Assembly (NCBI GenBank): GCA_001794215.1
Contig: MGJK01000002.1
Coordinates: forward strand, 3,310 to 67,309
Direction of reading: 5' to 3'
Length of the DNA stretch: 64,000 bases
Source: Candidatus Yanofskybacteria bacterium RIFCSPHIGHO2_01_FULL_44_24
GTDB taxonomy: Bacteria; Patescibacteriota; Minisyncoccia; 2-02-FULL-40-12; GWA2-44-9
A program made the position numbers and the translations under genes. Below the pieces are notes generated by a model. The model was given only the letters and a program-made list of their open reading frames with translations, was not told the origin of the DNA and ran no database searches. This document shows positions 27,140 to 39,928 of the stretch, one piece after another; within the stretch, counting starts at the first letter, position 1; each line of letters begins with the position of its first letter.

Positions 27140-27273
27140 TTAACCTCCGCTTTTTGTTAGGCATTTATCCCCTCGTCGTTCAACGGATAGAACAGAAGAT
27201 TGTTCCCGATTTGTCCAAGAGCGAAACGATTGGACACAAATCGCAATCCCGCATAAAATTCAACTAAATCAAT

Positions 27274-27350
27274 GTCCCCGTAGCTCAGCTGGATAGAGCG
27301 TCAGATTGCGGATCTGAAGGCCGGGTGTTCGAATCACCCCGGGGACACCA
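27274..27350 (+). tRNA. tRNA-Arg (anticodon GCG as read; CCA encoded)
   Basis: GTCCCCGTAGCTCAGCTGGATAGAGCG…, anticodon stem-loop TCAGA-TTGCGGA-TCTGA, T-arm GGGTG-TTCGAAT-CACCC, acceptor CGGGGAC-A-CCA. Confidence 0.8.
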
Positions 27351-27357
27351 ATTTTTG

Positions 27358-27404
27358 TGCGGGGCGGATCTTCAAATCGTGGTTCGATTTCACGCGAGGG
27401 GACC
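27358..27404 (+). repeat. degenerate duplicate of the 3' half of tRNA-Arg (att-site-like remnant)
   Basis: GCGGATCT…GTGGTTCGATTTCAC…GGGGACC parallels GCGGATCTGAAGG…GTGTTCGAATCAC…GGGGACA of the tRNA immediately upstream. Confidence 0.5.
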
Positions 27405-27457
27405 GTTTGTTCGAGGGTTCGTAAATAGACGAGCCGTTTCCTCCTTGGGCCGGTTGA

Positions 27458-27466
27458 TGGTATAAT
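27458..27466 (+). promoter_or_regulatory. extended -10 promoter element (TGgTATAAT) 10 nt upstream of recG ATG
   Basis: Sequence TTGATGGTATAATATAGGCCAAATGG. Confidence 0.4.
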
Positions 27467-27475
27467 ATAGGCCAA

Positions 27476-30370: not shown

Positions 30371-31945
30371 TCAGGAAGAGATTTGATAGTTTTTTCTAAT
30401 CTTGGGCGTTACCCAGAAGCCCAAGTATTTTCCCAGCATAAGGCGGGTCTGGGCTTCTAATCCCGGAAGAGCCCCAAGACCGATGGTAGTGACTGGGAAC
30501 AGGAGCCATTGGAGAATCATCCATAGGTATTTGAACTTTCCGAATTTCGGAGGACGGGGCGGAAGGAGGATTATCGAAAGAACGGCCGAAGAGACCAATC
30601 CCAGCATGGCCAGGGTCATGATGGTTCTGGTGAGCTGGGGAAGATTGAATGAGAGAACGGTTTGGTTGAACGCCGCCCCGCCGACTATTACCGGCAGCCA
30701 CCCTAAAAGAAAGATTATAACCGCATTGGTAGCCCAAGAATGAAAGCCCTCGATGACCATAAAACCGTAGCGCCATTTTTTGGATAGTGGTATTTTTTTG
30801 TTTTTCATAAATCCAAACAAGAAATAAGGCACGTTTTCCACGCCGTAACCCCAGCGGCGCTGCTGCTTGTAAACGTTTTTGAAAGTTTCCCATGTCGTTG
30901 AAGCCACATTGGCGTCCATCGAGACCGGGTAATACAGGGGAACGACGCGGTAATCGCCGTCGTATCTTAAAAAGCATTGCCAAAAAATACGCGAATCTTC
31001 GGAAACCATGTTTTTTTGCCAGAATCCAACGTCGATAAGGGCCTGAAACGGCATCGAGTGAGAGGAAAAGGTAGTTGCCGTCTCATGCTTCTCTTGCTTG
31101 ATGGTGTGCCAGAAGGTGGCCGAAAAGGCGACGACTCGGGCGAATGACGGTGCTTCCCATATGTTATTTATATAAAGCGGAACCGGTTGGTAGGATGATC
31201 TGAGGGGCTTTTCGGTAGTTAGGTAAGTATATGTCAGAACTCCAAAATACTCAGGGAATATAACCGTATCGACATCGAGATTGGATACTATAATGTTTGC
31301 ATAGGGAATGGCTTGGCGGTCGATGATTTCTCGTTTAACCCGCTCTGCTCCAAAAGAAGTGTTAGATCCTTTTCCGGGTATTTCATTTTGAAGACTTGCA
31401 GGATGCATTACCGACGCCAACCGGAAAAATTTGTCCTTATATTCTACTTCTATGCGCCTTACCGTCTCAGCGGTGGCTTCCCCTCCCCTTTCTTCCCAGC
31501 ATAATATGACGGCCATTTTTGATTTGGGGTAATTGCTTTTTAAAAGCCCGTCCATCGTGGCCGAGACTATCGGATAGCCCTCCTTGTAAATGGGCAGAAA
31601 GATAAAATGATAAATATCTTGCCAGGATTTTACAGACGAGAGCCTATAATCGGTAGTCGGCAGCTTGGTAAGGCGGTCGAGCCAGTCCACTTTTAGGTTT
31701 GTGCGCAAACGATTGTAAGAAACTCTCAGGTGGAAAGACAGATAGATTGTTTTGGTAAGCCAATAGACGTCGAATATTATTATAAAAAGAGCCATCAGGA
31801 CTGGTGCAAAAAAAGAGAGGAGAACGATTAATATTAGTGTCAGCCAAGCTAAAGTCCCCTGCATTGTTTCCAGTAGCCTGTAAAGGAATCTATCCCGAGA
31901 GACTGTAAGGTCCGCAGCCCTGCCTATATGGAGGTATTCCTGCAT
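30371..31945 (-). CDS. family 2 processive glycosyltransferase (cellulose/chitin/hyaluronan-synthase-like), integral membrane
   Basis: QQRRW (QxxRW) motif in YKQQRRWGYG, DxD-like region, N- and C-terminal TM bundles. Confidence 0.7.
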   Translation of the reverse strand: MQEYLHIGRAADLTVSRDRFLYRLLETMQGTLAWLTLILIVLLSFFAPVLMALFIIIFDVYWLTKTIYLSFHLRVSYNRLRTNLKVDWLDRLTKLPTTDYRLSSVKSWQDIYHFIFLPIYKEGYPIVSATMDGLLKSNYPKSKMAVILCWEERGGEATAETVRRIEVEYKDKFFRLASVMHPASLQNEIPGKGSNTSFGAERVKREIIDRQAIPYANIIVSNLDVDTVIFPEYFGVLTYTYLTTEKPLRSSYQPVPLYINNIWEAPSFARVVAFSATFWHTIKQEKHETATTFSSHSMPFQALIDVGFWQKNMVSEDSRIFWQCFLRYDGDYRVVPLYYPVSMDANVASTTWETFKNVYKQQRRWGYGVENVPYFLFGFMKNKKIPLSKKWRYGFMVIEGFHSWATNAVIIFLLGWLPVIVGGAAFNQTVLSFNLPQLTRTIMTLAMLGLVSSAVLSIILLPPRPPKFGKFKYLWMILQWLLFPVTTIGLGALPGLEAQTRLMLGKYLGFWVTPKIRKNYQISS

Positions 31946-31984
31946 CTTTATTATGAAACCACAAAAATCCAATGAAAAAAAGGC

Positions 31985-33451
31985 CTATTCGGCCTTTTCT
32001 GTAAACTCGAACTCCACATTGTCTTTATTCACGGAAGCCCTAATTTTGCCGGAAAATTTCGGACGTCGATAAAGCTCTCTTGCTAACGGCCGTTTCAGTA
32101 TCGATTTGATCTTATGGTTCAGCAGTCTTGCTCCAACCTCCGGCCGATGCGCGCTTTTATCAAGTATATGCTGTTTTACGGCCCCATCTATATCGAGGCT
32201 GATTCCCTTGTCAAGAAGATTTTGACAGAAAAGTTCGACCTGGTCGTTGACTATTTGGAGAAGGACGGCTTTAGACAGTGGTCTGAAAACAACTACATCA
32301 TCCAACCTTCCGCGAAATTCCGGAGGAAATGTTTTTTCAAGCTCCTTCTCGGCTATTCCGAGGATTTTGTTTTCCAAATTCTCTAAGCCATCTTCTGTAC
32401 ATTCGGTTCTATCGGAAGAACTGCCCGATCTGGTCTGACCGAATCCGATCGATCGGCCCTTTAGAATATCACCCATAGTTCTCGCACCGACATTAGAAGT
32501 GAGAATGATGAAGCTGTTCCTAAGGTCGCTCTCTATCCCGTTAGCCAAGGTTACCTTGCCGTCTTCCATGATTTGAAGAAGCAATCTATGGATAGCCGGA
32601 TCAGCTTTTTCAATTTCATCAAAAAGGATTATTGCCATCGGGTCTTCGTTTTCAACGTCTTCATCGGCAGGTGTAAGCAGTTTGGGATTAAGCCGGCTCA
32701 GCTCCATATCGATATCGGATAGTTGCCATATAACCTGAGATTCTTTGATCCGCAACTCAACCGCCATTCTGCTGAATTCGGATAACTCTATTTCGGTCAT
32801 TTTGGTCAGGGCCTCTATGTCCCGCATGTCTATATTGGGCTTATGAGGAGGATCTCTTCGGTCCGCATTCATATTGCGGGAAATGTCAAAATAAAATTCC
32901 AGAGCGTCTCTTATCAAAAGAAGATCATTATTCAGGGTCATAATTTTTTCCTGATTTTTTTGAAATTCTCTTCTCAGGCCTTTTAGCTCTCTGAGCAACT
33001 CCATTTTTAAGCCCAATAACTTCTGAACTCTTGGATCCGGGTTATCAGCTTTCGGATTGACATCTCGTCCGTTCTTAAATATTACCTCGGGAGACAGAAG
33101 CGGTTTGTTGTCGAAGCCGATATAGCTTGGCGGAGCGCCAAGGAGAGTCTGAATAGTGTGGGGCTGGCTTAGCGTTTCACATTCTATTTTCGTTAAAGCA
33201 TCTTCGCTGCCAAAGTAAAACTCTGCCAAAGCGCGAGCTGTCTCCGTCTTCCCGACTCCGCTGGGACCCAAGAACAGTACGACGCCCACCGGTCCTCTTT
33301 TTTTAGTCTCTATTTTTCTGTTAAGCACTTCATTGTCTTGGATCAGGTTTGCAACGGTATAGACAGCCTTGGGTTGACCCCGAACTCTCTTAGATAAGTG
33401 GTCTTTAAGGCGTTCAATCTCGTTTAGAAAGTCATTACCACCCATAGACAC
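31985..33451 (-). CDS. Clp/Hsp100 D2-type AAA+ unfoldase (ClpA/ClpC second-module-only) with ClpP-docking IGF loop and a ~130-aa insertion
   Basis: GPSGVGKTE Walker A, ILFDEIEKA Walker B, LTSNVG sensor-1 and PEFRGRLD; a C-terminal GAR motif is present. KGRSIGFGQ aligns with the IGF/IGL ClpP-binding loop. Collinear with ClpA D2 by eye. Confidence 0.8.
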   Translation of the reverse strand: MSMGGNDFLNEIERLKDHLSKRVRGQPKAVYTVANLIQDNEVLNRKIETKKRGPVGVVLFLGPSGVGKTETARALAEFYFGSEDALTKIECETLSQPHTIQTLLGAPPSYIGFDNKPLLSPEVIFKNGRDVNPKADNPDPRVQKLLGLKMELLRELKGLRREFQKNQEKIMTLNNDLLLIRDALEFYFDISRNMNADRRDPPHKPNIDMRDIEALTKMTEIELSEFSRMAVELRIKESQVIWQLSDIDMELSRLNPKLLTPADEDVENEDPMAIILFDEIEKADPAIHRLLLQIMEDGKVTLANGIESDLRNSFIILTSNVGARTMGDILKGRSIGFGQTRSGSSSDRTECTEDGLENLENKILGIAEKELEKTFPPEFRGRLDDVVVFRPLSKAVLLQIVNDQVELFCQNLLDKGISLDIDGAVKQHILDKSAHRPEVGARLLNHKIKSILKRPLARELYRRPKFSGKIRASVNKDNVEFEFTEKAE

Positions 33452-33489
33452 CCCAGTTTATAAAGGAGCTTATTGCAGTATATCCATGA

Positions 33490-33575
33490 GAAATAAAAAA
33501 TCAACCCCGTTAGAGGTAGCCTCGCCAAGGTTCTTCGGACTCACGCCCCTGGGCGTGAGCGAGACCTCTAACGGG
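33490..33575 (-). terminator. second (nested double-hairpin) terminator downstream of Ubl operon
   Basis: On the minus strand: CCCCGTTAGAGGT…(inner CTCACGCCC/GGGCGTGAG hairpin)…ACCTCTAACGGGG followed by TTGATTTTTT. Confidence 0.5.
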
Positions 33576-33613
33576 GCTAACCCCGCTTTCCATTGGAAGT
33601 ATTCTCATACTTC

Positions 33614-33638
33614 CAAAAAAAGAACCCGTTTTCGGGTT
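33614..33638 (-). terminator. intrinsic terminator immediately after Ubl gene
   Basis: Minus strand: GAACCCG-AAAA-CGGGTTC followed by TTTTTTT. Confidence 0.7.
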
Positions 33639-33649
33639 CATGGGGTCGA

Positions 33650-33931
33650 TTAACCTCCAGAAAGGCGAGGCGCAATCGTTACCGTGGACGGCTGGACCAG
33701 TATAGGATTTTCCTTCAGCTCGCCCTCATGGTGGTTGATCAATCTTGAGTTGAGCAGAATAGAATGTCCGGCCAAGTTCAGACCGGGATGGGTCTTTAGA
33801 AACTTTTTCAGCAGGTCTGATAGCCGAGCGCCCGGCTCCAAGCTGACCTTCTCGGGCTTGCCGCCTATAGTGACGGTGTGTTCAAGCTCTTTTGTGCTTG
33901 GATTTCTATCCTTCGGTTTCTCTGTCTCCAT
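33650..33931 (-). CDS. ubiquitin-like / ThiS-MoaD-like beta-grasp protein ending in Gly-Gly
   Basis: 93 aa. The C-terminus …VTIAPRLSGG-stop is a free diglycine with no pro-sequence. A TVTIGG…beta-grasp-like core is present. Confidence 0.65.
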   Translation of the reverse strand: METEKPKDRNPSTKELEHTVTIGGKPEKVSLEPGARLSDLLKKFLKTHPGLNLAGHSILLNSRLINHHEGELKENPILVQPSTVTIAPRLSGG

Positions 33932-33956
33932 TGATTCTCCTTCTCCCCTCTCGTTT

Positions 33957-34613
33957 TTATATTATCTCTTTTTTATCCGTTTTTACAAGGGGAAGATCTT
34001 CGAAGTTGACGACTACTTCGAGGAATTTATCTCGAAAACTATCGTCCTTTTTGATAAGAATAAGAATTTTAGCCACAGCCGCCGCTACCGCCCAAAGAGC
34101 AGGCACTGTTTCTATTGTGGCACAGGCCGGGTTGAGGACTCTTTTATCGGAATACAGCATCTGTGCGTATTGGCTGATTGAACCTTGCTGGCGGGGGTTA
34201 AAAGCATAAACATAAGCCGTATTTCCACCCGTACGGGCCTCAATATAGTAAGAAACTGAAGCATCGTTTTTACAGGCTTCAAAGATTTCCCTTCTGGCGG
34301 CCATACTGTCCACCATTACGATGACTATTCCTCGCAGACGTAAAATGTCGCTTTGGTTTATTTTCACCGGCTCGGTTTTGATATTTTTTTCAGTCAGCAG
34401 GTAGACAATTTTCTTGAGCGAGTCTGCTTTCAAAGATCCGGCATCGGATAATCTGTAGAGCTGGTTATCGGTGTTATGGGATTCTACCTTGTCGTGGTCG
34501 AATACCTCGATTTCGCAGCCTATGGCATGAGCTATTTTGCTTATTAGAAGAGCCTGGAAGCTTCCCAAGCTTCCCGCGCCTATCAGGGTGATCTTTTCAG
34601 TCATCATCGTCAT
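33957..34613 (-). CDS. E1-like ubiquitin/ThiS-activating enzyme (ThiF/MoeB/HesA family)
   Basis: ITLIGAGSLGS Rossmann motif and FDHDKVESHNTDNQ (the DxDxVExSNLNRQ-type ATP-binding block). The protein is short (218 aa). Confidence 0.75.
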   Translation of the reverse strand: MTMMTEKITLIGAGSLGSFQALLISKIAHAIGCEIEVFDHDKVESHNTDNQLYRLSDAGSLKADSLKKIVYLLTEKNIKTEPVKINQSDILRLRGIVIVMVDSMAARREIFEACKNDASVSYYIEARTGGNTAYVYAFNPRQQGSISQYAQMLYSDKRVLNPACATIETVPALWAVAAAVAKILILIKKDDSFRDKFLEVVVNFEDLPLVKTDKKEII

Positions 34614-35205
34614 TTCCGGAAGTTTTAACTGGTTTTACAATCTTTACTTTTTGCTTGATTATTTCCGACATTCTTTCCTCATTATCTTTCAGCAGTCGCT
34701 CCAGCATCGACGGTGACAATTTTTCTGTAAACTCAAATTCTCTTATCAGTGTTCTTAAAAGAGGTTCCGGCCTGTAACGCCATAGTTCCATGTAGACTTG
34801 GCACCTCTTGTTCACTACCATAGCCAGCCACCAGTCGTAGTCTTGGCCTATAAGCCTCATAGTTGAAAGGTCTTCGTCGCTCAAACCCACCCCGGACCAC
34901 ACATGACTATGCCACCAAAGTCTTGCCTCCTGAATTATATTTTCCTGGCCGGCTAAAACCATTTTTTCCTGCCAGAGAAGATAAGCCGTTTCGTCGAATG
35001 TAGTTTTCACGAGGCTACAGGTCTGATCAAATACGATCGGCTCCCCATGGATTACATAGATCGAATCTCTTTTTTCGATTTTGGCTAAGCCCGAGACTTC
35101 AACTTCGCACACCATGGCGGCAAGCATAATTTCCACAAAAGTTTTAGGTTCGAATACAATTCTTGCGTTCTTGGAATTTCCCAAGTTCATCATAACCCGC
35201 CCCAT
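34597..35205 (-). CDS. JAB/MPN (JAMM) metalloisopeptidase
   Basis: JAMM motif HSHVWSGVGLSDED (HxH-x7-S-xxD) with an upstream Glu in …CEVEVSG. Confidence 0.75.
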   Translation of the reverse strand: MGRVMMNLGNSKNARIVFEPKTFVEIMLAAMVCEVEVSGLAKIEKRDSIYVIHGEPIVFDQTCSLVKTTFDETAYLLWQEKMVLAGQENIIQEARLWWHSHVWSGVGLSDEDLSTMRLIGQDYDWWLAMVVNKRCQVYMELWRYRPEPLLRTLIREFEFTEKLSPSMLERLLKDNEERMSEIIKQKVKIVKPVKTSGNDDDD

Positions 35206-37022
35206 TGCGGCGTATAGCCGGACTTTGGATTTAATATTCCGGATTCGACAATTTTTTTCGCCACCAATAAAATATCGGCCACTTCGCCGGATAACTGAAG
35301 TCTCGCTATTTCTTGTATGGCGTCGCTTAGGGATTTGTTTTCGAAAATCGGCAGTTTAGGATCGGCTCCATCGGCCGAGAGGATCACATGTTTTAAAGTC
35401 GAGCTTAGTGATCCAAAATGTAACTCGGGCGGAGATTCCGGCTGAAGTCTCAAGATATAACCGAGAACTTTTTGGAGCGTTTCTCCGGAAGATTGTTCCG
35501 AATGAAAATATACCTGCAACTCATTTGGGGTTACTTCTATCCCGAAAACACCAGGACCATCTAAAAGCTCGACTACCCCTAACTGGGCCATGTAGCCGAT
35601 CTTATCGAGCTTTTGTTCTAAAATTTTTCCGTTTTCCCAAGTTTCTATTGCCGCATGATGCAAAGAAACTCTTTCTTGCTGAAGAAACGCCATGTCGTCT
35701 TTGAGCTTGTTTATTTTGGCTTTTAATTCGTTGGATCGACGGGCAAAAAGCTGGGTGCGGTATACGTCGATGAAGTGATTTTTTTCCCTTATTTTTTCTT
35801 CCGGACTTGAGTAGGTATCGGTATCTTCTTCTCGATCCCAGTCTGAAGTTTTGCGCTGATTCGGAGTACTGCTTTCTTTGATTAGGAAGGTAATCAGTAC
35901 ATGAACTAAGGCGGCGATATCCAGATCAATCATCAGTTGCTGGATGTCTCTGTTAAGACCATTGGTATTGTCTGTGCCGAAGCAAGTGTTAGCGCCATCT
36001 CTTGCATGGATGTGCTCATAGGGTCCGCGGTAGCGTTTTTGCATAAATCTTATACCATTCAAGTCTTTTGATGCGGGGTCGATCATTATTTCGTATTTAC
36101 CGAGATCATATCTATGAGATTTTACAAGATCATTGTCCGGAACCTGAAATATTCTGCCGGTGCTTATGATTATCTTGGGAAGAGCGGTATCTTCGCCGAT
36201 TATCCTCACCGTTTCCACGGCCTCCATGGCCAATATCTTTTCAAATTCTGCCTCAAGGTTCGTTTCCGCCAATCTGGCTGTGACATTTTTTATGCGCTCT
36301 TCTGCATCGGCAAGCTCCAGAGCCCTTTTATAGTAGTCATATCTCCTTGTCAGGGTTTTAGCCGTCAGTTTTTCAAGTTCTTCGGAGTTCTTGGTTATCC
36401 TTTGGGTCATGAAATTAAGAAAGTATTTTCTCATTTCGGACTCGATATCTTTTCTGCCGTCCCCTTTTCTTATTTTTTGGCAATTCAGTTCTCCGAGCCG
36501 GCGGTACGAATCTTTCCAATCAATCGCTCCATCCATTCGGCCGGCATAAATTATATGGGGGAGGCTCCAGTACAAAATCCAGTTGAGCATTTTATAGTCT
36601 TCCGTATTAGAAACTCCCCCTAATACGCCCGGAAAAACATAAAGATCTCTTTGTAGGATCCAGCCGATCGTATAACCTTCCGGAGAATCGATCGGTATCC
36701 CGAAGTTAGCCTTAGCTTCTTCAAGCGAAGGAGATTCAGGAGACAGTTTCTGGCCAAAAAGCGTTTGCGGACGCCGTCTATTCTTCTGCTTAGACTTTTC
36801 CAGGTAGCTGTTTACGTGAATGTAGACGGTATTGTCGGCCGGATTTGATGTGCCTGAAAACATGCCGTTGGGCATGTCTATAGATAGTTTAATATTCAGC
36901 GCCGCGCCGATACGGTTTAGAAAATGCAGGAATTTTCGAAGACTCAGCGCGTCTTGAGGACTGGCGCAGTTTTCTTCGTTTACCGTAGCATGTTCAAATC
37001 CGCGGGAATCAGTCTCTTTCAT
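35190..37022 (-). CDS. large hypothetical protein (610 aa) co-operonic with JAB/E1/Ubl; possible E2/E3-like or adaptor
   Basis: Overlaps the JAB start. Contains long coiled-coil segments and a His…Cys block YEHIHARDGANTCFGT. No confident family assignment. Confidence 0.5.
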   Translation of the reverse strand: MKETDSRGFEHATVNEENCASPQDALSLRKFLHFLNRIGAALNIKLSIDMPNGMFSGTSNPADNTVYIHVNSYLEKSKQKNRRRPQTLFGQKLSPESPSLEEAKANFGIPIDSPEGYTIGWILQRDLYVFPGVLGGVSNTEDYKMLNWILYWSLPHIIYAGRMDGAIDWKDSYRRLGELNCQKIRKGDGRKDIESEMRKYFLNFMTQRITKNSEELEKLTAKTLTRRYDYYKRALELADAEERIKNVTARLAETNLEAEFEKILAMEAVETVRIIGEDTALPKIIISTGRIFQVPDNDLVKSHRYDLGKYEIMIDPASKDLNGIRFMQKRYRGPYEHIHARDGANTCFGTDNTNGLNRDIQQLMIDLDIAALVHVLITFLIKESSTPNQRKTSDWDREEDTDTYSSPEEKIREKNHFIDVYRTQLFARRSNELKAKINKLKDDMAFLQQERVSLHHAAIETWENGKILEQKLDKIGYMAQLGVVELLDGPGVFGIEVTPNELQVYFHSEQSSGETLQKVLGYILRLQPESPPELHFGSLSSTLKHVILSADGADPKLPIFENKSLSDAIQEIARLQLSGEVADILLVAKKIVESGILNPKSGYTPQWGGL

Positions 37023-37054
37023 TCCACATCCTTTTTAAGGAACGGGCTATAGAG

Positions 37055-37083
37055 CTTATATGATAAAAAAATTGTTTTTGCAA
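37055..37083 (-). promoter_or_regulatory. putative sigma70-type promoter for the 610aa-JAB-E1-Ubl operon
   Basis: Minus strand TTGCAA-17 nt-TATAAG, located ~35 nt upstream of the start codon. Confidence 0.35.
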
Positions 37084-37109
37084 CCTCGCCAAGGCTTTGA
37101 GGCAGCGAT

Positions 37110-37143
37110 TTTAAAAACAAAAAACTCCGCATTTGCGGAGTTT
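37110..37143 (-). terminator. intrinsic terminator after AAA ATPase gene
   Basis: Minus strand CTCCGC-AAAT-GCGGAG followed by TTTTTTGTTTTT. Confidence 0.6.
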
Positions 37144-37151
37144 GAATATGT

Positions 37152-39119
37152 CTAAGATAGCTTGGGCTTGGCGGTATTGCTTTCCGCCCCGATTATTCCA
37201 AGGCTCCTGGCCGCTTTATACCATCTGCCCTCTTTAGGGATAAATCTCAAGCTGTTACAGAATGAAAGGGCGAGTAGGGTCATCTGGTTATGGATTAGCA
37301 TATCTCTTGGCGGGATATAGTCGTTTAGGGCTTCAAGCAGGTGTTTTCCGGAGAGAGCTTCATTCATTCCGGCCGAGTTTGCAATAGCTCTCCTGATTAT
37401 ATTTTCAATCTGGCCGCCGGTGAAATAAATTTCATCTTCTCCGTCCTTGTCCATATCTAATGCCAACGAGTGAAATTCATCCGGGTCGCATTTACGAATT
37501 TCTTGACTAATAAGGTGGCAATGGGACATCCGGGCGAATTCTCTGACTAATTTAAGTTCGACTTCAGAGGTTTTCAGCGGAGAATTTGTCGCATCGGACA
37601 GGACGGCATATTTGTACAAAAGAGCTCCGACGATATCGACCCTCTCTTTGGCTGAAGGAGGGAAGAACGGTATCTTATCATCAAATCTTCCGTCTCTGAG
37701 CAGGGCCGGATCTATGAGGTCGGGCCTATTAGATGCCGCAATCCACATGACTTTCCCGCGCAAATTGGTATCGGACATGAACATGAATAATCTTCCCTGA
37801 AGCCTGTTATTGACCCCGGAGTCCCCCACTGGAGCCTCTGATCTCGTCTGCAGTTCTTGATCAATCTCATCCATAAACACGACCACCGGAGCAAGCACTA
37901 AAATCAATTCGAGGGCGAAGTCTAAGTTTCTTTCCGATTGTCCGACCCATTTTTCCCGGATATTCTTCAGGGTTACGAATGGAACTTCGGCTTCATATGC
38001 CACTGACTGGGCAAAAACAGTTTTGCCCGTTCCGGGAGCTCCGAGCAGAAGTACTCCGGTAGGTATTGAGGAAAGATTGCCCGCCCGCATGTGTTCCACG
38101 ACACGAGCGATATAACGCTTATGCTCGTCGAGGCCGCCTATCGCTTTTATTCCGCAGATCGGCCTGATTACCTCAACTAATCCTCCGGATTGTTCTTCGA
38201 TAAATTTTTTCTTTCTTTCAAACAGAACTCTGTGGGTTATCGGTTCGGATTTGTAAGATGATTCTTTGACCAGGCTCGTGATCGCATTTATGGACATTCC
38301 AGCAGAGTGTTGGGCGAAGGCTCGAACGTCTAAATTTCTCGATGTTTCTCGGCCTTTTAAAAGCCACCCATACAGGAGGGCTCTTTTTGTTTGATCCGGA
38401 AAGTCTATCTTCACCGGGACTATTCCATGTGTCTCCGATTCCAATTGATTCGCTACCGAAGTCAGGCCCTCGGTCAAAAGAAATAAGATATTCCGGGATA
38501 AGCGTATCGACTGATCTTTTGATATAGTCAGCAGGTATACAAGTGCGGATCGGTCGTCGGACGAAGAAGAATGGGCAGAATTCGGCGGTACGATTGTCTC
38601 AAGATATTCGAACACTGCTCCGAAGAACGGCTTATGGGATTTATCGGCCAAGAACTTTTTAAATTCTTCCGGTTCCCGATCTTCGCGTATCAGCTCTGAC
38701 ATCTCGGCTTTTTTATCAATAATTTTGGTGACGTCTTTCCAGCCGATTCTTAGCATGTGGGAGAAGAGCTTAAGAGCGTAGCCAAGAGAATGTCTTTTTG
38801 CATGAAATTCTTCAACGGCCTCGTTTCCCCCGCCTAATGCCGGCGGAAGTTTCTTTGATTTAACGATGGCCAAAAACTTGAGGAATTTTTCCTCCGATTT
38901 TTCACTGGCGAATCGGATACCCTCGCCTATGTTGTAAAAGGCGACGAACTCAGCCTCAGATAGCGGCGAATTATTCAAGATCAGGTCATTAATTGATTCG
39001 AGTCGGGTATTGCTCCCTCTCGATACTAAAAAGGCATCAGACACGTTCAGGTGCAGCAAGAACGTATGAGATGCCCCTGATTTGAATTTATTGTCAATTT
39101 CCTTGAGCCAGCCTTCCAT
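37152..39119 (-). CDS. classical AAA family ATPase (Cdc48/FtsH/PAN-like single AAA module) with ~330-aa N-terminal domain
   Basis: Walker A LLLGAPGTGKT, Walker B VVFMDEID, and second region of homology ASNRPDLIDPALLRDGRFD. Confidence 0.8.
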   Translation of the reverse strand: MEGWLKEIDNKFKSGASHTFLLHLNVSDAFLVSRGSNTRLESINDLILNNSPLSEAEFVAFYNIGEGIRFASEKSEEKFLKFLAIVKSKKLPPALGGGNEAVEEFHAKRHSLGYALKLFSHMLRIGWKDVTKIIDKKAEMSELIREDREPEEFKKFLADKSHKPFFGAVFEYLETIVPPNSAHSSSSDDRSALVYLLTISKDQSIRLSRNILFLLTEGLTSVANQLESETHGIVPVKIDFPDQTKRALLYGWLLKGRETSRNLDVRAFAQHSAGMSINAITSLVKESSYKSEPITHRVLFERKKKFIEEQSGGLVEVIRPICGIKAIGGLDEHKRYIARVVEHMRAGNLSSIPTGVLLLGAPGTGKTVFAQSVAYEAEVPFVTLKNIREKWVGQSERNLDFALELILVLAPVVVFMDEIDQELQTRSEAPVGDSGVNNRLQGRLFMFMSDTNLRGKVMWIAASNRPDLIDPALLRDGRFDDKIPFFPPSAKERVDIVGALLYKYAVLSDATNSPLKTSEVELKLVREFARMSHCHLISQEIRKCDPDEFHSLALDMDKDGEDEIYFTGGQIENIIRRAIANSAGMNEALSGKHLLEALNDYIPPRDMLIHNQMTLLALSFCNSLRFIPKEGRWYKAARSLGIIGAESNTAKPKLS

Positions 39120-39928
39120 TAGCGGATCCCTTTTTGATATATGGCGTCGATAATCGGATCGCCGGGGAGAAGCACTTTATCTATCATCCCCGCTTCAAGG
39201 GCCTCTTCGGGTGCCATCAGCGTCTCGTTGTCGATGAAAGCCTTAACTAATTTGACCCTCTCTTTCTTATTTTTTAATAGATTCTTATCGTAACCCGCAA
39301 GATCCATTCTTTTAACCTGGAGCTCCGGTATTTTAGAATTGTCAGAAATCATTTCATAAATAGTCTGATTAAGCCGCGATTGGTATTTATGGACTTCTTC
39401 TATATCGTGTTCTCTTGCTCCGCCGGCGCCTCTTAGTCCGAAGTGGGTATGGGTTAATGTATTTTCAAGCGCATAGCGCCTTCTCGGAGTACCCATCATC
39501 AGGATTATTCCTCCCATACTCATGCTCTGGCACAGGTTTACTGTCCAGACCTCGATACCCTTTGCCTTAAGGTGATTCATGGCTTGGATGATTGTGAACC
39601 CGGCCTGAATATCGCCTCCCGGACTGTTGATGACGATTTTCACGGGGTCTTTGCTCTCTGTTCCCAAGATCATCAAAGATCCGTAAACTTCTTCGGCTAC
39701 GCTTGGAAAACTGCTTGGTGAAGAAATCTGCTGACTCGATATGATCTGGCTGAAGATCGGTATTGTTCGAGCTTCGCGAGCCAAGAATACCCAAGGATCA
39801 ACAAGGGTTACGGGTTTTTCGCTCCAGGGCTTAACAAGCATGACTCGTCTCCTTTCGATAATGTAAAAGATCGGAATACCAAGCATAATTTCATATAATT
39901 TATTAAGGGTCAATAGGTGTTTAGGCAA
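39119..39928 (-). CDS. ClpP-like serine protease (S14 family) with ~70-aa N-terminal extension
   Basis: INSPGGDIQAGFTIIQAM resembles the ClpP YINSPGG block. A catalytic-Ser block CQSMSMGG and a downstream His region are present. The start overlaps the holA stop. Confidence 0.7.
   Translation of the reverse strand: MPKHLLTLNKLYEIMLGIPIFYIIERRRVMLVKPWSEKPVTLVDPWVFLAREARTIPIFSQIISSQQISSPSSFPSVAEEVYGSLMILGTESKDPVKIVINSPGGDIQAGFTIIQAMNHLKAKGIEVWTVNLCQSMSMGGIILMMGTPRRRYALENTLTHTHFGLRGAGGAREHDIEEVHKYQSRLNQTIYEMISDNSKIPELQVKRMDLAGYDKNLLKNKKERVKLVKAFIDNETLMAPEEALEAGMIDKVLLPGDPIIDAIYQKGIR

What the first reader, a model, noticed from the sequence alone, without database searches (positions are those of the whole stretch)
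31985..33451. D2-only ClpA/ClpC-type unfoldase with IGF loop and a ~130-aa coiled-coil-like insertion
The protein matches the second AAA+ module of ClpA/ClpC by eye: GQxKAV, GPSGVGKTE, IGAPPSYIGFD, DEIEKA, TSNVG, PEFRGRLD, and a C-terminal GAR motif. It has no N-domain and no D1 module. It retains SIGFG where ClpA has the IGL and ClpX the IGF ClpP-binding loop. A long insertion (DNPDPRVQKLL…EDPMA) lies between the Walker A region and Walker B, where ClpB/ClpC carry no such element in D2. A single-ring Clp ATPase predicted to dock on ClpP and sitting next to a Ubl system would be an unusual, possibly substrate-dedicated unfoldase.
Basis: partly seen in the sequence, partly recalled or inferred. 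Interest (0 to 1): 0.6.

Follow-up and report, generated by a model that had tools for sequence, protein, structure and literature searches.

The report
Single-ring Clp unfoldase with coiled-coil insert
This gene encodes a stripped-down, one-ring relative of the ClpC/ClpA protein-unfolding motors that carries a long two-helix arm and a protease-docking loop; it is a conserved, uncharacterised housekeeping gene of tiny "candidate phyla radiation" bacteria, not a dedicated part of the ubiquitin-like system beside it.

Summary
ORF 31985..33451 (-) encodes an intact 488-aa protein made of a single ClpA/B/C D2-type AAA+ module. All catalytic motifs are present, and there is no N-domain and no D1.

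A 147-aa insertion (res 122-268) lies between pore loop 1 and Walker B. AlphaFold models it as an antiparallel two-helix hairpin. This is the same topological site as the HslU I-domain, but I found no sequence homology to it.

SIGFG aligns with the ClpP-docking loop of ClpC. A hydrophobic-Gly-Phe/Tyr motif is present in 30/30 close relatives and about 96% of 157 more distant insertion-bearing relatives. The architecture is widespread in Parcubacteria/Patescibacteria and is annotated only generically.

The proposed link to the Ubl system is not supported:
- The gene occupies a fixed backbone position (holA | slot | this gene - GT2 - RecG).
- It has its own conserved promoter and leader, preceded by a terminator.
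- In relatives the upstream slot is empty, or holds a PrkA cassette, a Pup-proteasome cassette or the Ubl cassette.
- The Ubl cassette has its own AAA+ ATPase, whose gene overlaps that of the ClpP-like protease.
- In one relative the cassette lies next to LonA instead of this gene.

Most likely function: a stand-alone ClpP-docking unfoldase whose hairpin replaces the missing N- and M-domains. The ClpP partner was not identified.

The parts
31985..33451 (-). Complete CDS of the single-module Clp/Hsp100 ATPase (488 aa, GTG start; an ATG two codons downstream gives the 486-aa database form)
33089..33424 (-). N-terminal half of the large AAA+ subdomain (res 10-121), including Walker A and pore loop 1
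   Evidence: Aligns to ClpC 500-604; mean pairwise identity within the family 59%
33242..33268 (-). Walker A motif, GPSGVGKTE (res 62-70)
   Evidence: Almost entirely invariant in A1 (Gly65 at least 90%); translation checked
33113..33139 (-). Pore loop 1, GAPPSYIGF (res 105-113); aromatic Tyr110 at least 90% conserved
32648..33088 (-). Family-specific 147-aa insertion (res 122-268) between pore loop 1/alpha2 and the Walker B strand. This is the same topological site as the HslU I-domain.
   Evidence: Gap in the ClpC alignment. Within the family only 20% mean identity, but length is conserved at 147-175 aa in 27 of the 30 members (105 aa in P0042/43/47). HslU comparison.
32861..33034 (-). Hairpin helix 1 (res 140-197)
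   Evidence: AF2 helix, pLDDT about 82-88. Hydrophobic periodicity of 3.45-3.5 residues; 0.2% of shuffles reach it.
32690..32827 (-). Hairpin helix 2 (res 209-254)
   Evidence: AF2 helix, pLDDT about 84-90. The heptad signal is weaker; 8% of shuffles reach it.
32609..32632 (-). Walker B strand, IILFDEIE (res 274-281)
   Evidence: LFDEIE is invariant
32525..32557 (-). Pre-sensor-1 beta-hairpin (res 299-309), the hallmark of the HCLR clade
   Evidence: AF2 strands E299-301 and E307-309; clade definition from PMC7973254
32492..32500 (-). Sensor-1, TSN (res 318-320)
   Evidence: Thr318 and Asn320 invariant
32396..32452 (-). Flexible loop (res 334-352) that begins with SIGFG. This is the predicted ClpP-docking (IGF-type) loop.
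   Evidence: Aligns with the ClpC docking loop. Gly336 invariant, Phe337 at least 90% conserved, motif present in 30/30. pLDDT below 50, i.e. predicted disordered.
32300..32323 (-). PEFRGRLD (res 377-384), the arginine-finger region; Arg382 invariant
32066..32278 (-). Small AAA+ subdomain (ClpB_D2-small, res 392-462) with the sensor-2 motif GAR (res 440-442; nt 32126-32134)
   Evidence: Pfam PF10431, E=5.5e-11
33477..33504 (-). Promoter-like site TTGATT-N16-TATACT, 53 nt upstream of the start. It is conserved, together with a leader motif AAGYTCNTT, across loci whatever lies upstream.
33622..33639 (-). Terminator-like hairpin GAACCCGAAAACGGGTTC followed by T7, directly after the Ubl stop codon. 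It separates the Ubl cassette from this gene.
   Evidence: Equivalent hairpins in L086, L001 and L173.
30371..31972 (-). Downstream family-2 glycosyltransferase (533 aa), 12 nt after the Clp stop codon. It is a constant neighbour and probably co-transcribed. It is context, with no shown functional link.
33650..39928 (-). Neighbouring but separate Ubl cassette: ClpP-like, AAA (655 aa), 610-aa E2-like candidate, JAB/MPN+, E1 (ThiF) and a Ubl ending in GG. It occupies the variable slot between holA and this gene.

Best explanation
The gene encodes a stand-alone, single-ring Clp/Hsp100-type AAA+ protein unfoldase. It belongs to a family that is widespread in Parcubacteria/Patescibacteria (the candidate phyla radiation, CPR).

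Shown:
- It has one ClpA/B/C-D2-type module with intact Walker A and B, sensor-1, arginine-finger region, sensor-2 and an aromatic pore loop 1.
- It has a conserved hydrophobic-Gly-Phe loop at the position where ClpC, ClpA and ClpX carry their ClpP-docking loop.
- It has a 105-175-aa insertion, predicted to be an antiparallel two-helix hairpin, emerging just after pore loop 1.
- It has its own conserved promoter and leader, and a fixed chromosomal position.

Inferred:
- It forms a hexamer that threads substrates through the Tyr110 pore loops.
- It hands them to a ClpP-type peptidase docked through the IGF-type loops.
- The six hairpins crown the substrate-entry face. There they serve as the substrate-recognition, adaptor-recognition or autoregulatory element, replacing the N-domain, D1 and M-domain this protein lacks. 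This would be analogous to the HslU I-domain, which is inserted at the same site.

Its position beside the Ubl cassette reflects insertion of that cassette into a variable slot upstream, not shared function.
For: Module identity:
- Pfam, NCBIfam and PDB sequence matches.
- The top Foldseek hits are ClpC1 chains from ClpC1:ClpP1P2 complexes and ClpB NBD2.

Motif and loop conservation:
- Catalytic motifs are invariant across the 30 aligned relatives.
- The hydrophobic-Gly-[FY] motif is present in 30/30 close relatives and 150/157 insertion-bearing single-module relatives.
- The loop is predicted disordered, as docking loops are. The flexibility of IGF loops is described in PMC9035409.

The hairpin:
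- Two independent AF2 models, built on proteins about 40% identical, give the same two long helices.
- Helix 1 shows heptad-like periodicity.
- The spacing from pore-loop Tyr to Walker B Asp is 168 aa, against 24 in two-ring ClpB/C.
- In HslU the I-domain (res 110-243) occupies the same gap.

Independence from the cassette:
- The context census covers 12 loci from distinct contigs, including the window.
- A terminator follows the Ubl gene in four loci, and the promoter and leader are conserved in all contexts.
- The ClpP-like and AAA genes overlap.

Distribution: Harrisonbacteria, Yanofskybacteria, Parcubacteria group and Patescibacteria group.
Against: - No canonical clpP (or clpX, clpS, mecA) was found in the 64-kb window or in any related locus fetched. 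I could not search whole genomes, so the ClpP partner is unproven.
- The best-scoring curated family is ClpB, a ClpP-independent disaggregase.
- The role of the hairpin rests only on topology and analogy. Its orientation in a hexamer was not modelled.
- Every cassette seen in the upstream slot concerns protein tagging or degradation, and LonA can take this gene's place. Some functional coupling with the neighbours therefore cannot be ruled out.
Confidence: 0.6

Rival explanations
1. The protein is the dedicated unfoldase of the adjacent Ubl (E1/E2-like/JAB) system. It recognises Ubl-tagged proteins, perhaps through its coiled coil, and feeds them to the cassette's ClpP-like protease through its IGF loops.
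For: - It lies on the same strand immediately downstream of the Ubl gene in three lineages: the window, L001/L002 and L086.
- The cassette-bearing lineages form their own ClpD2 subclade with a shorter insertion.
- The cassette encodes a ClpP-like protein that keeps the catalytic Ser and His.
- Coiled coils of Mpa bind the Pup tag (my knowledge; topic of PMC8755798).
Against: - The gene, its IGF loop and its hairpin persist where the slot is empty or holds PrkA or Pup-proteasome cassettes.
- The cassette occurs with LonA instead of this gene (L173) and in a different backbone (L172).
- A terminator-like hairpin follows the Ubl gene in four loci, and this gene's promoter and leader are conserved in all contexts.
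- The ClpP-like gene always overlaps the start of its own AAA ATPase gene.
- In L086 the E1 is truncated to about 70 residues while this gene is intact.
Confidence: 0.12
2. It is a ClpP-independent remodeller or disaggregase, in the manner of ClpB or human CLPB/Skd3. The single ring extracts or unfolds proteins and releases them. The coiled coil acts like the ClpB M-domain as a regulatory or Hsp70-coupling arm, and the conserved Gly-Phe loop has another role.
For: - The top curated-family match is ClpB (E=9.4e-56).
- D2-only disaggregases exist: CLPB/Skd3 chains appear among the PDB hits.
- No canonical ClpP was seen in any fetched sequence.
- The coiled-coil element recalls the ClpB/ClpC M-domain (PMC4023160).
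Against: - The hydrophobic-Gly-Phe tripeptide aligns with the ClpC docking loop and is conserved in about 96% of insertion-bearing relatives.
- From my own knowledge, ClpB and Skd3 lack this loop.
- The best structural matches are ClpC1 chains in ClpP complexes.
- The insertion lies in the large AAA+ subdomain after pore loop 1, not in a D1 small subdomain as the M-domain does.
Confidence: 0.2
3. It is a remnant or pseudogene of a disrupted two-ring clpC, or a mis-called ORF.
For: Only the D2 half of ClpC/ClpA is present.
Against: - The reading frame is intact and the catalytic residues are invariant.
- The same 470-536-aa plan is found in about 45 clusters of close relatives and in 157 insertion-bearing single-module relatives overall.
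- There is no D1-like sequence upstream; the upstream neighbour is the Ubl gene, only 198 nt away.
- The gene has its own conserved promoter.
Confidence: 0.02

Closest known systems
ClpC / ClpA / ClpE D2 ring (ClpABC-CTD family, HCLR clade; Pfam AAA_2 + ClpB_D2-small)
   Same: - Closest in sequence (E about 1e-46; about 36-39% identity over the core) and in fold.
- Same Walker A and B, sensor-1, arginine-finger region, GAR sensor-2 and GYVG-type pore loop.
- The ClpP-docking loop is at the same alignment position.
   Different: - No N-domain, D1 ring or M-domain.
- A 147-aa hairpin is inserted after pore loop 1, where ClpB/C have a 24-residue spacing.
- Scores lie far below the ClpA and ClpB equivalog cut-offs.
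HslU (ClpY)
   Same: - A single-ring HCLR unfoldase of similar size (443 aa).
- It carries a large auxiliary domain (I-domain, res 110-243) between the GYVG pore loop and Walker B.
- The spacing from pore-loop Tyr to Walker B is about 165 aa, against 168 aa here.
- The I-domain recognises substrates and controls the ATPase (PMC4703411, PMC7468587).
   Different: - Homology is detectable only around Walker A; the insertion itself shows none.
- From my own knowledge, HslU docks on HslV through its C-terminal tail, not through an IGF loop.
- The core here is ClpC-like, and no HslU family hit was returned.
ClpX
   Same: A single-ring unfoldase that binds ClpP through IGF loops (PMC9035409). There is a weak family match over the C-terminal part (E=8.6e-8).
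   Different: - From my own knowledge, ClpX uses an N-terminal zinc-binding domain and RKH loops for recognition and has no post-pore-loop insertion.
- The score is far below the ClpX cut-off (31 against 359 bits).
Human CLPB/Skd3 and the D2-only ATPases of candidate defence systems (PADLOC PDC-M37B, DolB)
   Same: They have a stand-alone ClpB-D2-type module.
   Different: - From my own knowledge, Skd3 has N-terminal ankyrin repeats and no ClpP loop.
- The PADLOC profiles match only partially, at E values from 4e-31 to 7e-18.
ClpB/ClpC M-domain and Mpa/ARC coiled coils
   Same: These are long coiled-coil arms on Hsp100 or proteasomal ATPases. They bind partners (Hsp70, MecA, Pup) or mediate resting states (PMC4023160; ClpC resting-state entries).
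   Different: They are inserted elsewhere: in the D1 small subdomain, or at the N-terminus. No sequence similarity was tested beyond the family profile.

Membership tests
Clp/Hsp100 D2-type AAA+ module (Pfam AAA_2 PF07724 + ClpB_D2-small PF10431; HCLR clade) | Scores above the curated Pfam thresholds for both domains | tested here: met
   AAA_2 scores 126.6 bits (cutoff 27). ClpB_D2-small scores 42.8 bits (cutoff 21.9).
Clp/Hsp100 D2-type AAA+ module (Pfam AAA_2 PF07724 + ClpB_D2-small PF10431; HCLR clade) | Walker A, Walker B, sensor-1, arginine finger and sensor-2 (GAR) intact | tested here: met
   GPSGVGKTE, LFDEIE, Thr318/Asn320, Arg382 and G440-A441-R442 are present and conserved in A1. 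Sensor-2 Arg is Ser in seven relatives.
Clp/Hsp100 D2-type AAA+ module (Pfam AAA_2 PF07724 + ClpB_D2-small PF10431; HCLR clade) | Pre-sensor-1 beta-hairpin (PS1 insert) | tested here: met
   AF2 strands at 299-301 and 307-309 precede sensor-1. The clade definition comes from PMC7973254. This rests on a model only.
ClpA, ClpB, ClpX and ClpV equivalogs (NCBIfam) | Whole-protein score above the curated equivalog cut-off, i.e. full architecture | tested here: not met
   ClpB 189.7 against 1232; ClpA 179.3 against 993; TssH/ClpV 167.6 against 885; ClpX 31.4 against 359. There is no D1, N-domain or zinc-binding domain.
ClpP-partner unfoldases (ClpX/ClpA/ClpC/ClpE) | Hydrophobic-Gly-Phe/Leu tripeptide in the flexible loop after sensor-1 | tested here: met
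   SIGFG aligns with the ClpC and ClpC1 loops. The motif is in 30/30 close relatives and 150/157 distant ones. The loop is predicted disordered.
ClpP-partner unfoldases (ClpX/ClpA/ClpC/ClpE) | A ClpP peptidase encoded in the same genome | tested here: inconclusive
   Only the divergent cassette ClpP-like protein is in the window. No canonical ClpP appears in the window or in any fetched locus. Whole genomes could not be searched, and the name look-up of canonical ClpP hits returned nothing.
ClpP-partner unfoldases (ClpX/ClpA/ClpC/ClpE) | Physical docking on ClpP and ATP-dependent stimulation of proteolysis | not testable with these tools
   This needs biochemistry or multimer modelling. Only single-chain prediction was available.
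HslU (ClpY) | I-domain inserted between the pore-1 loop and Walker B | tested here: inconclusive
HslU (ClpY) | HslU-type sequence, with C-terminal tail docking on HslV | tested here: not met
   hhalign aligns only residues 16-96. No HslU family appears in the NCBIfam output. The core is ClpC-like.
ClpB-type disaggregase | Two AAA+ rings with an M-domain coiled coil in D1 and no ClpP loop | tested here: not met
   There is a single module, the coiled coil lies in the D2-type large subdomain, and an IGF-type loop is present.
Component of the adjacent Ubl conjugation/proteolysis cassette | Co-occurrence and co-transcription with the cassette genes | tested here: not met
   The gene is present without the cassette in 7 of the 10 distinct loci that carry it (window included; L090 duplicates L003). 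The cassette is present without the gene in L173, with L172 undetermined. A terminator and the gene's own promoter lie between them.

The most novel reading that the evidence does not exclude
The stretch between holA and the GT2 gene may be a 'proteolysis island' in these reduced genomes. A constant executor, either this hairpin-bearing Clp ATPase or LonA in its place, sits downstream of interchangeable protein-tagging and degradation modules. Three such modules were seen: Ubl-E1-E2-like-JAB with AAA and ClpP-like; PafA with 20S proteasome and Mpa-like ATPase; and PrkA-YeaH-SpoVR. On this reading the fast-evolving coiled-coil hairpin is a tag or adaptor reader that couples the ATPase to whichever module is present. 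CPR bacteria would then run modular, swappable tagged-proteolysis pathways, including a ubiquitin-like one ending in a ClpP-type chamber.
Probability: 0.12. Interest if true: 0.8.

Novelty: new variant of a known kind. Interest (0 to 1): 0.45.

Why it matters
Bacterial ClpP partners are usually described as ClpX (one ring with a zinc-binding domain) or ClpA/C/E (two rings with an N-domain). This family would be a third design: the ClpC D2 ring alone, with a recognition or regulatory arm inserted where HslU has its I-domain. That would be convergence between two branches of the HCLR clade.

It appears to be a standard proteostasis component of a very large, uncultured and genome-reduced bacterial radiation, where it is currently annotated only as "AAA family ATPase" or "Clp ATP-binding subunit". 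Knowing its partner and the role of its hairpin would show how minimal cells select proteins for degradation, and would provide a compact model unfoldase.

The work also corrects a tempting guilt-by-association call. The neighbouring Ubl cassette has its own ATPase and protease and deserves separate study.

Tried and rejected
Searches that gave nothing useful:
- Genome-contig scan with the full-family alignment. The tool chose generic patterns (GPSGVGKTE, LFDEIEK), so it returned only ordinary ClpB/C loci and no family members.
- Metagenome-contig scan with a C-terminal segment alignment. It yielded one real family locus, L090, which duplicates L003. The rest were generic, as tblastn confirmed.
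- Viral-contig scan. Only weak generic Clp matches came back, so the family is not evidently viral.
- Search for a canonical ClpP. phmmer and tblastn over the window and all loci found none. Cluster look-ups of canonical ClpP hits carried no organism names.
- Rfam scan of the window found only five tRNAs and nothing in the structured intergenic region upstream of the gene.
- Literature searches on Yanofskybacteria, Patescibacteria or Parcubacteria combined with Clp, ClpP, unfoldase or proteasome found no description of this family or of the cassette.

Ideas considered and rejected:
- A clpC fragment or pseudogene. Family-wide conservation of length and motifs rules this out.
- Homology of the insertion to the HslU I-domain. 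No signal was found.
- Membership of PADLOC defence families. The matches are only partial.
- An IGF-like docking motif in the cassette's own AAA ATPase. I looked and found nothing obvious.
Full report
**Observation.** ORF 31985..33451 on the minus strand encodes 488 aa from a GTG start. A 100%-identical 486-aa protein from Candidatus Yanofskybacteria is in public collections. Pfam places one AAA_2 domain, split into two stretches (about 10-120 and 268-385; E=1.3e-36), plus ClpB_D2-small (392-462; E=5.5e-11). NCBIfam's best matches are ClpB, ClpA and TssH, but only over their C-terminal third and far below the equivalog cut-offs. Against solved structures the best relatives are ClpC, ClpC1 and ClpB D2 (E about 1e-46). 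Query residues 12-120 align with ClpC 500-604 and residues 269-483 with ClpC 608-803, so about 147 residues are extra. Upstream there are only 198 nt before the Ubl gene, which leaves no room for a D1 remnant.

**Anatomy.** In an alignment of 30 relatives (A1) the following are invariant or nearly so: Walker A, Walker B (LFDEIE), sensor-1 (Thr318/Asn320), Arg382 and Gly440-Ala441 of the GAR sensor-2. The pore-loop aromatic Tyr110 is at least 90% conserved. SIGFG aligns with 'FAGFG' of S. aureus ClpC and 'NLGFA' of Streptomyces ClpC1, which is the ClpP-docking loop. Gly336 is invariant and Phe337 at least 90% conserved. All 30 sequences carry hydrophobic-Gly-Phe/Tyr (IGF, MGF, FGF, LGF or IGY). 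AlphaFold2 (mean pLDDT 81.5) models the insertion as two long helices, 140-197 and 209-254, with pLDDT about 82-90. These are joined by a variable tip to form an antiparallel hairpin. It leaves the IGF loop (334-352) disordered, as expected for a flexible docking loop (loop flexibility in PMC9035409). A second model, built on a relative about 40% identical (P0020), gives the same hairpin with a small three-helix knob at the tip. Helix 1 has a clear 3.5-residue hydrophobic periodicity, reached by 0.2% of shuffles; helix 2 is weaker. Foldseek's best hits are ClpC1 chains from ClpC1:ClpP1P2 complexes, S. aureus ClpC/ClpP and ClpB NBD2.

**Where the insertion sits.** In two-ring ClpB/C proteins the pore-loop aromatic and the Walker B aspartate are 24 residues apart; here they are 168 apart. 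E. coli HslU, whose sequence I checked against PDB entry 1g4a, carries its I-domain (res 110-243; PMC4703411) in the same gap, with about 165 residues between Tyr91 and Walker B. S. aureus HslU has an I-domain at 117-273 (PMC7468587). The site and size therefore match HslU. BLASTP and profile comparison, however, align only the Walker A region. I read this as analogy, not detectable homology.

**Family and distribution.** The word-indexed search found about 45 clusters of 470-536 aa that cover more than 90% of the protein. The AAA+ core is about 60% identical within the family. The insertion is only about 20% identical, yet its length is conserved at 147-175 aa in 27 of the 30 aligned members (105 aa in the P0042/P0043/P0047 subgroup). 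An exhaustive profile search of 1.84 billion representatives showed that this is one branch of a much larger group. The top 150 hits are mostly single-module proteins of 350-530 aa. Many match the whole profile in one stretch, and they share the same plan. Across all sequences fetched, 157 single-module proteins have an insertion (spacing of 60 or more), and 150 of them carry a hydrophobic-Gly-hydrophobic loop after sensor-1, dominated by IGF, MGF and LGF. A further 79 single-module relatives lack the insertion but keep the loop. Source names place the group in Harrisonbacteria, Yanofskybacteria, Parcubacteria group and Patescibacteria group, under generic annotations. I found no paper describing it.

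**Relation to the Ubl cassette.** The minus-strand neighbours upstream of the gene, in order of increasing distance, are:
- a 93-aa Ubl ending in GG;
- a 218-aa ThiF-type E1;
- a 202-aa protein with a JAMM motif;
- a 610-aa protein;
- a 655-aa classic-clade AAA ATPase;
- a ClpP-like protein.

Beyond these lie holA, DUF3048 and fpg. Downstream of the gene are a GT2 glycosyltransferase and recG.

The backbone fpg-DUF3048-holA | slot | ClpD2 gene-GT2-recG recurs in relatives, but the slot varies:
- empty in L003 (duplicated as L090) and L087;
- the Ubl cassette in the window, L086 and L001/L002;
- PrkA-DUF444-SpoVR in L004, L089, L170 and L171;
- PafA with two 20S proteasome subunits and an Mpa-like ATPase in L088.

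Searching from the cassette side gave two further loci. In L173 the same backbone and cassette are followed by a full-length LonA (828 aa) exactly where the ClpD2 gene normally sits. In L172 the cassette lies in a different backbone.

The ClpP-like gene overlaps the start of its own AAA ATPase gene in all four loci where both are seen. A terminator-like hairpin directly follows the Ubl stop codon in the window, L086, L001 and L173. A promoter-like TTGATTTT-N16-TATA[AC]T, together with a conserved leader motif AAGYTCNTT, precedes the ClpD2 gene in all ten loci aligned, whatever lies upstream. In L086 the E1 is reduced to about 70 residues while the ClpD2 gene is intact.

Taken together, the ClpD2 gene is an independent transcription unit and a backbone gene. 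It is not a cassette component.

**Mechanism.** I propose a hexameric unfoldase that translocates substrates with its Tyr110 pore loops and docks through six IGF-type loops on a ClpP-family peptidase. The six hairpins would sit on the entry face, acting as the recognition, adaptor or autoinhibitory element that N-, D1- and M-domains provide elsewhere, and doing so in the way the HslU I-domain does. The motifs, the loop position, the hairpin and the independent regulation are shown. Hexamer formation, ClpP docking and the hairpin's role are inferred.

The main gap is the partner. No canonical clpP lies in the window or in any fetched locus, and whole genomes could not be searched. The cassette ClpP-like protein is a poor candidate for three reasons:
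- It belongs to a small divergent family of 22 clusters, with a large gap to canonical ClpP.
- Most members have lost the catalytic Asp.
- It is absent from most genomes that carry the ATPase.

**Rivals.**
- A ClpP-independent remodeller like ClpB or Skd3 (confidence 0.2). It is favoured by the missing ClpP but disfavoured by the conserved docking tripeptide.
It is contradicted by the comparative context and the transcription signals.
- A clpC fragment (0.02). It is excluded by family-wide conservation.

One observation keeps a more adventurous reading alive. Everything seen in the slot concerns protein tagging or degradation, and LonA can substitute for this gene. The region may therefore be a modular proteolysis island.

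**Novelty and score.** This is a new variant of a known kind: a one-ring ClpC-D2-type unfoldase with an IGF loop and a coiled-coil arm at the HslU I-domain site. It is widespread in CPR bacteria but undescribed. It would interest AAA+ and CPR specialists moderately. The specific excitement of a Ubl-linked Clp machine does not survive testing. Interest 0.45.

Noticed in passing
window 33650-39928 (-): This looks like a complete ubiquitin-like conjugation-plus-proteolysis cassette. It holds a Ubl ending in GG (33650-33931), a short ThiF-type E1 (33957-34613) and a 202-aa protein with a perfect JAMM motif HSHVWSGVGLSDED (34597-35205). It also holds a 610-aa protein (35190-37022), a classic-clade AAA ATPase (37152-39119) and a ClpP-like protease whose gene overlaps the ATPase start (39119-39928). 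In the 610-aa protein H-x-H-x7-C-F-G is invariant in five homologues, and its spacing matches the E2 HPN-x7-C motif. No paper linking a Ubl system to a ClpP-type chamber was found; the Bub/Bil papers never mention ClpP.
   Followed up: partly
L088 2774-7709: A Pup-proteasome cassette sits in the same holA|ClpD2 slot of a related Parcubacteria-like contig. It comprises a Pup ligase (PafA), two 20S proteasome subunits and an Mpa/ARC-like ATPase with OB domains. Pupylation is usually described as actinobacterial.
   Followed up: no
L173 16331-18817: A full-length LonA (828 aa, with Walker A/B and the protease Ser) occupies exactly the position of the ClpD2 gene, between the Ubl cassette and GT2. 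This is an apparent in-situ displacement between two ATP-dependent proteolysis genes.
   Followed up: partly
L004 2474-9856; L089 4406-9916; L170 4138-9795; L171 2632-9889: A PrkA-DUF444(YeaH)-SpoVR cassette, sometimes with a second PrkA or a ~200-aa unknown, is the commonest occupant of the slot. It is spread over several ClpD2 subclades, so it may be the ancestral state.
   Followed up: no
window 39119-39928 (-) and relatives P0121-P0142: The cassette ClpP-like family keeps the catalytic Ser and His, but the Asp171-equivalent is present only in the window protein. The family has three specific insertions and an altered N-terminal (axial loop) region. The TTG-start ORF is probably over-extended, since the database form is 240 aa.
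   Followed up: partly
L086 9181-9384: The E1 of the Ubl cassette is truncated to about 70 residues in this relative, while all other cassette genes are intact. This suggests the cassette is decaying in some lineages.
   Followed up: no
alignment A1, position of window res 442 (nt 32126-32128): The sensor-2 arginine (GAR) is replaced by serine (GAS) in seven family members (P0008, P0014, P0016, P0020, P0029, P0031, P0033), although the rest of the ATPase site is intact.
   Followed up: no
window 33452-33649 (-) and the equivalent regions of ten loci: A leader motif AAGYTCNTT(T/A)A lies between the -10 box and the ribosome-binding site of the ClpD2 gene. It is conserved in all contexts and may be an operator or RNA element. 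There is no Rfam match, and I saw no CtsR or CIRCE consensus when reading the upstream sequence by eye.
   Followed up: partly
P0248 (not in window): A second, distinct insertion-bearing D2-only ATPase type (509 aa, loop KKIGF) is also annotated from Candidatus Yanofskybacteria. Some of these genomes may therefore carry two paralogues.
   Followed up: no
L172 9173-9868: A stand-alone 231-aa protein consisting only of a Lon substrate-binding N-domain lies directly upstream of the ClpP-like/AAA pair in a different genomic backbone.
   Followed up: no
window 31985-33451 vs neighbours: The ClpD2 protein evolves much faster than its neighbours. It is 37-49% identical between loci, against 57-77% for GT2, 64-77% for RecG and 57-68% for Fpg. 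The difference is concentrated in the hairpin.
   Followed up: partly
window 27269-27475 (-): A 68-aa ORF overlaps tRNA-Arg (27274-27350, + strand) and is almost certainly spurious. Five tRNAs are present in the window.
   Followed up: no
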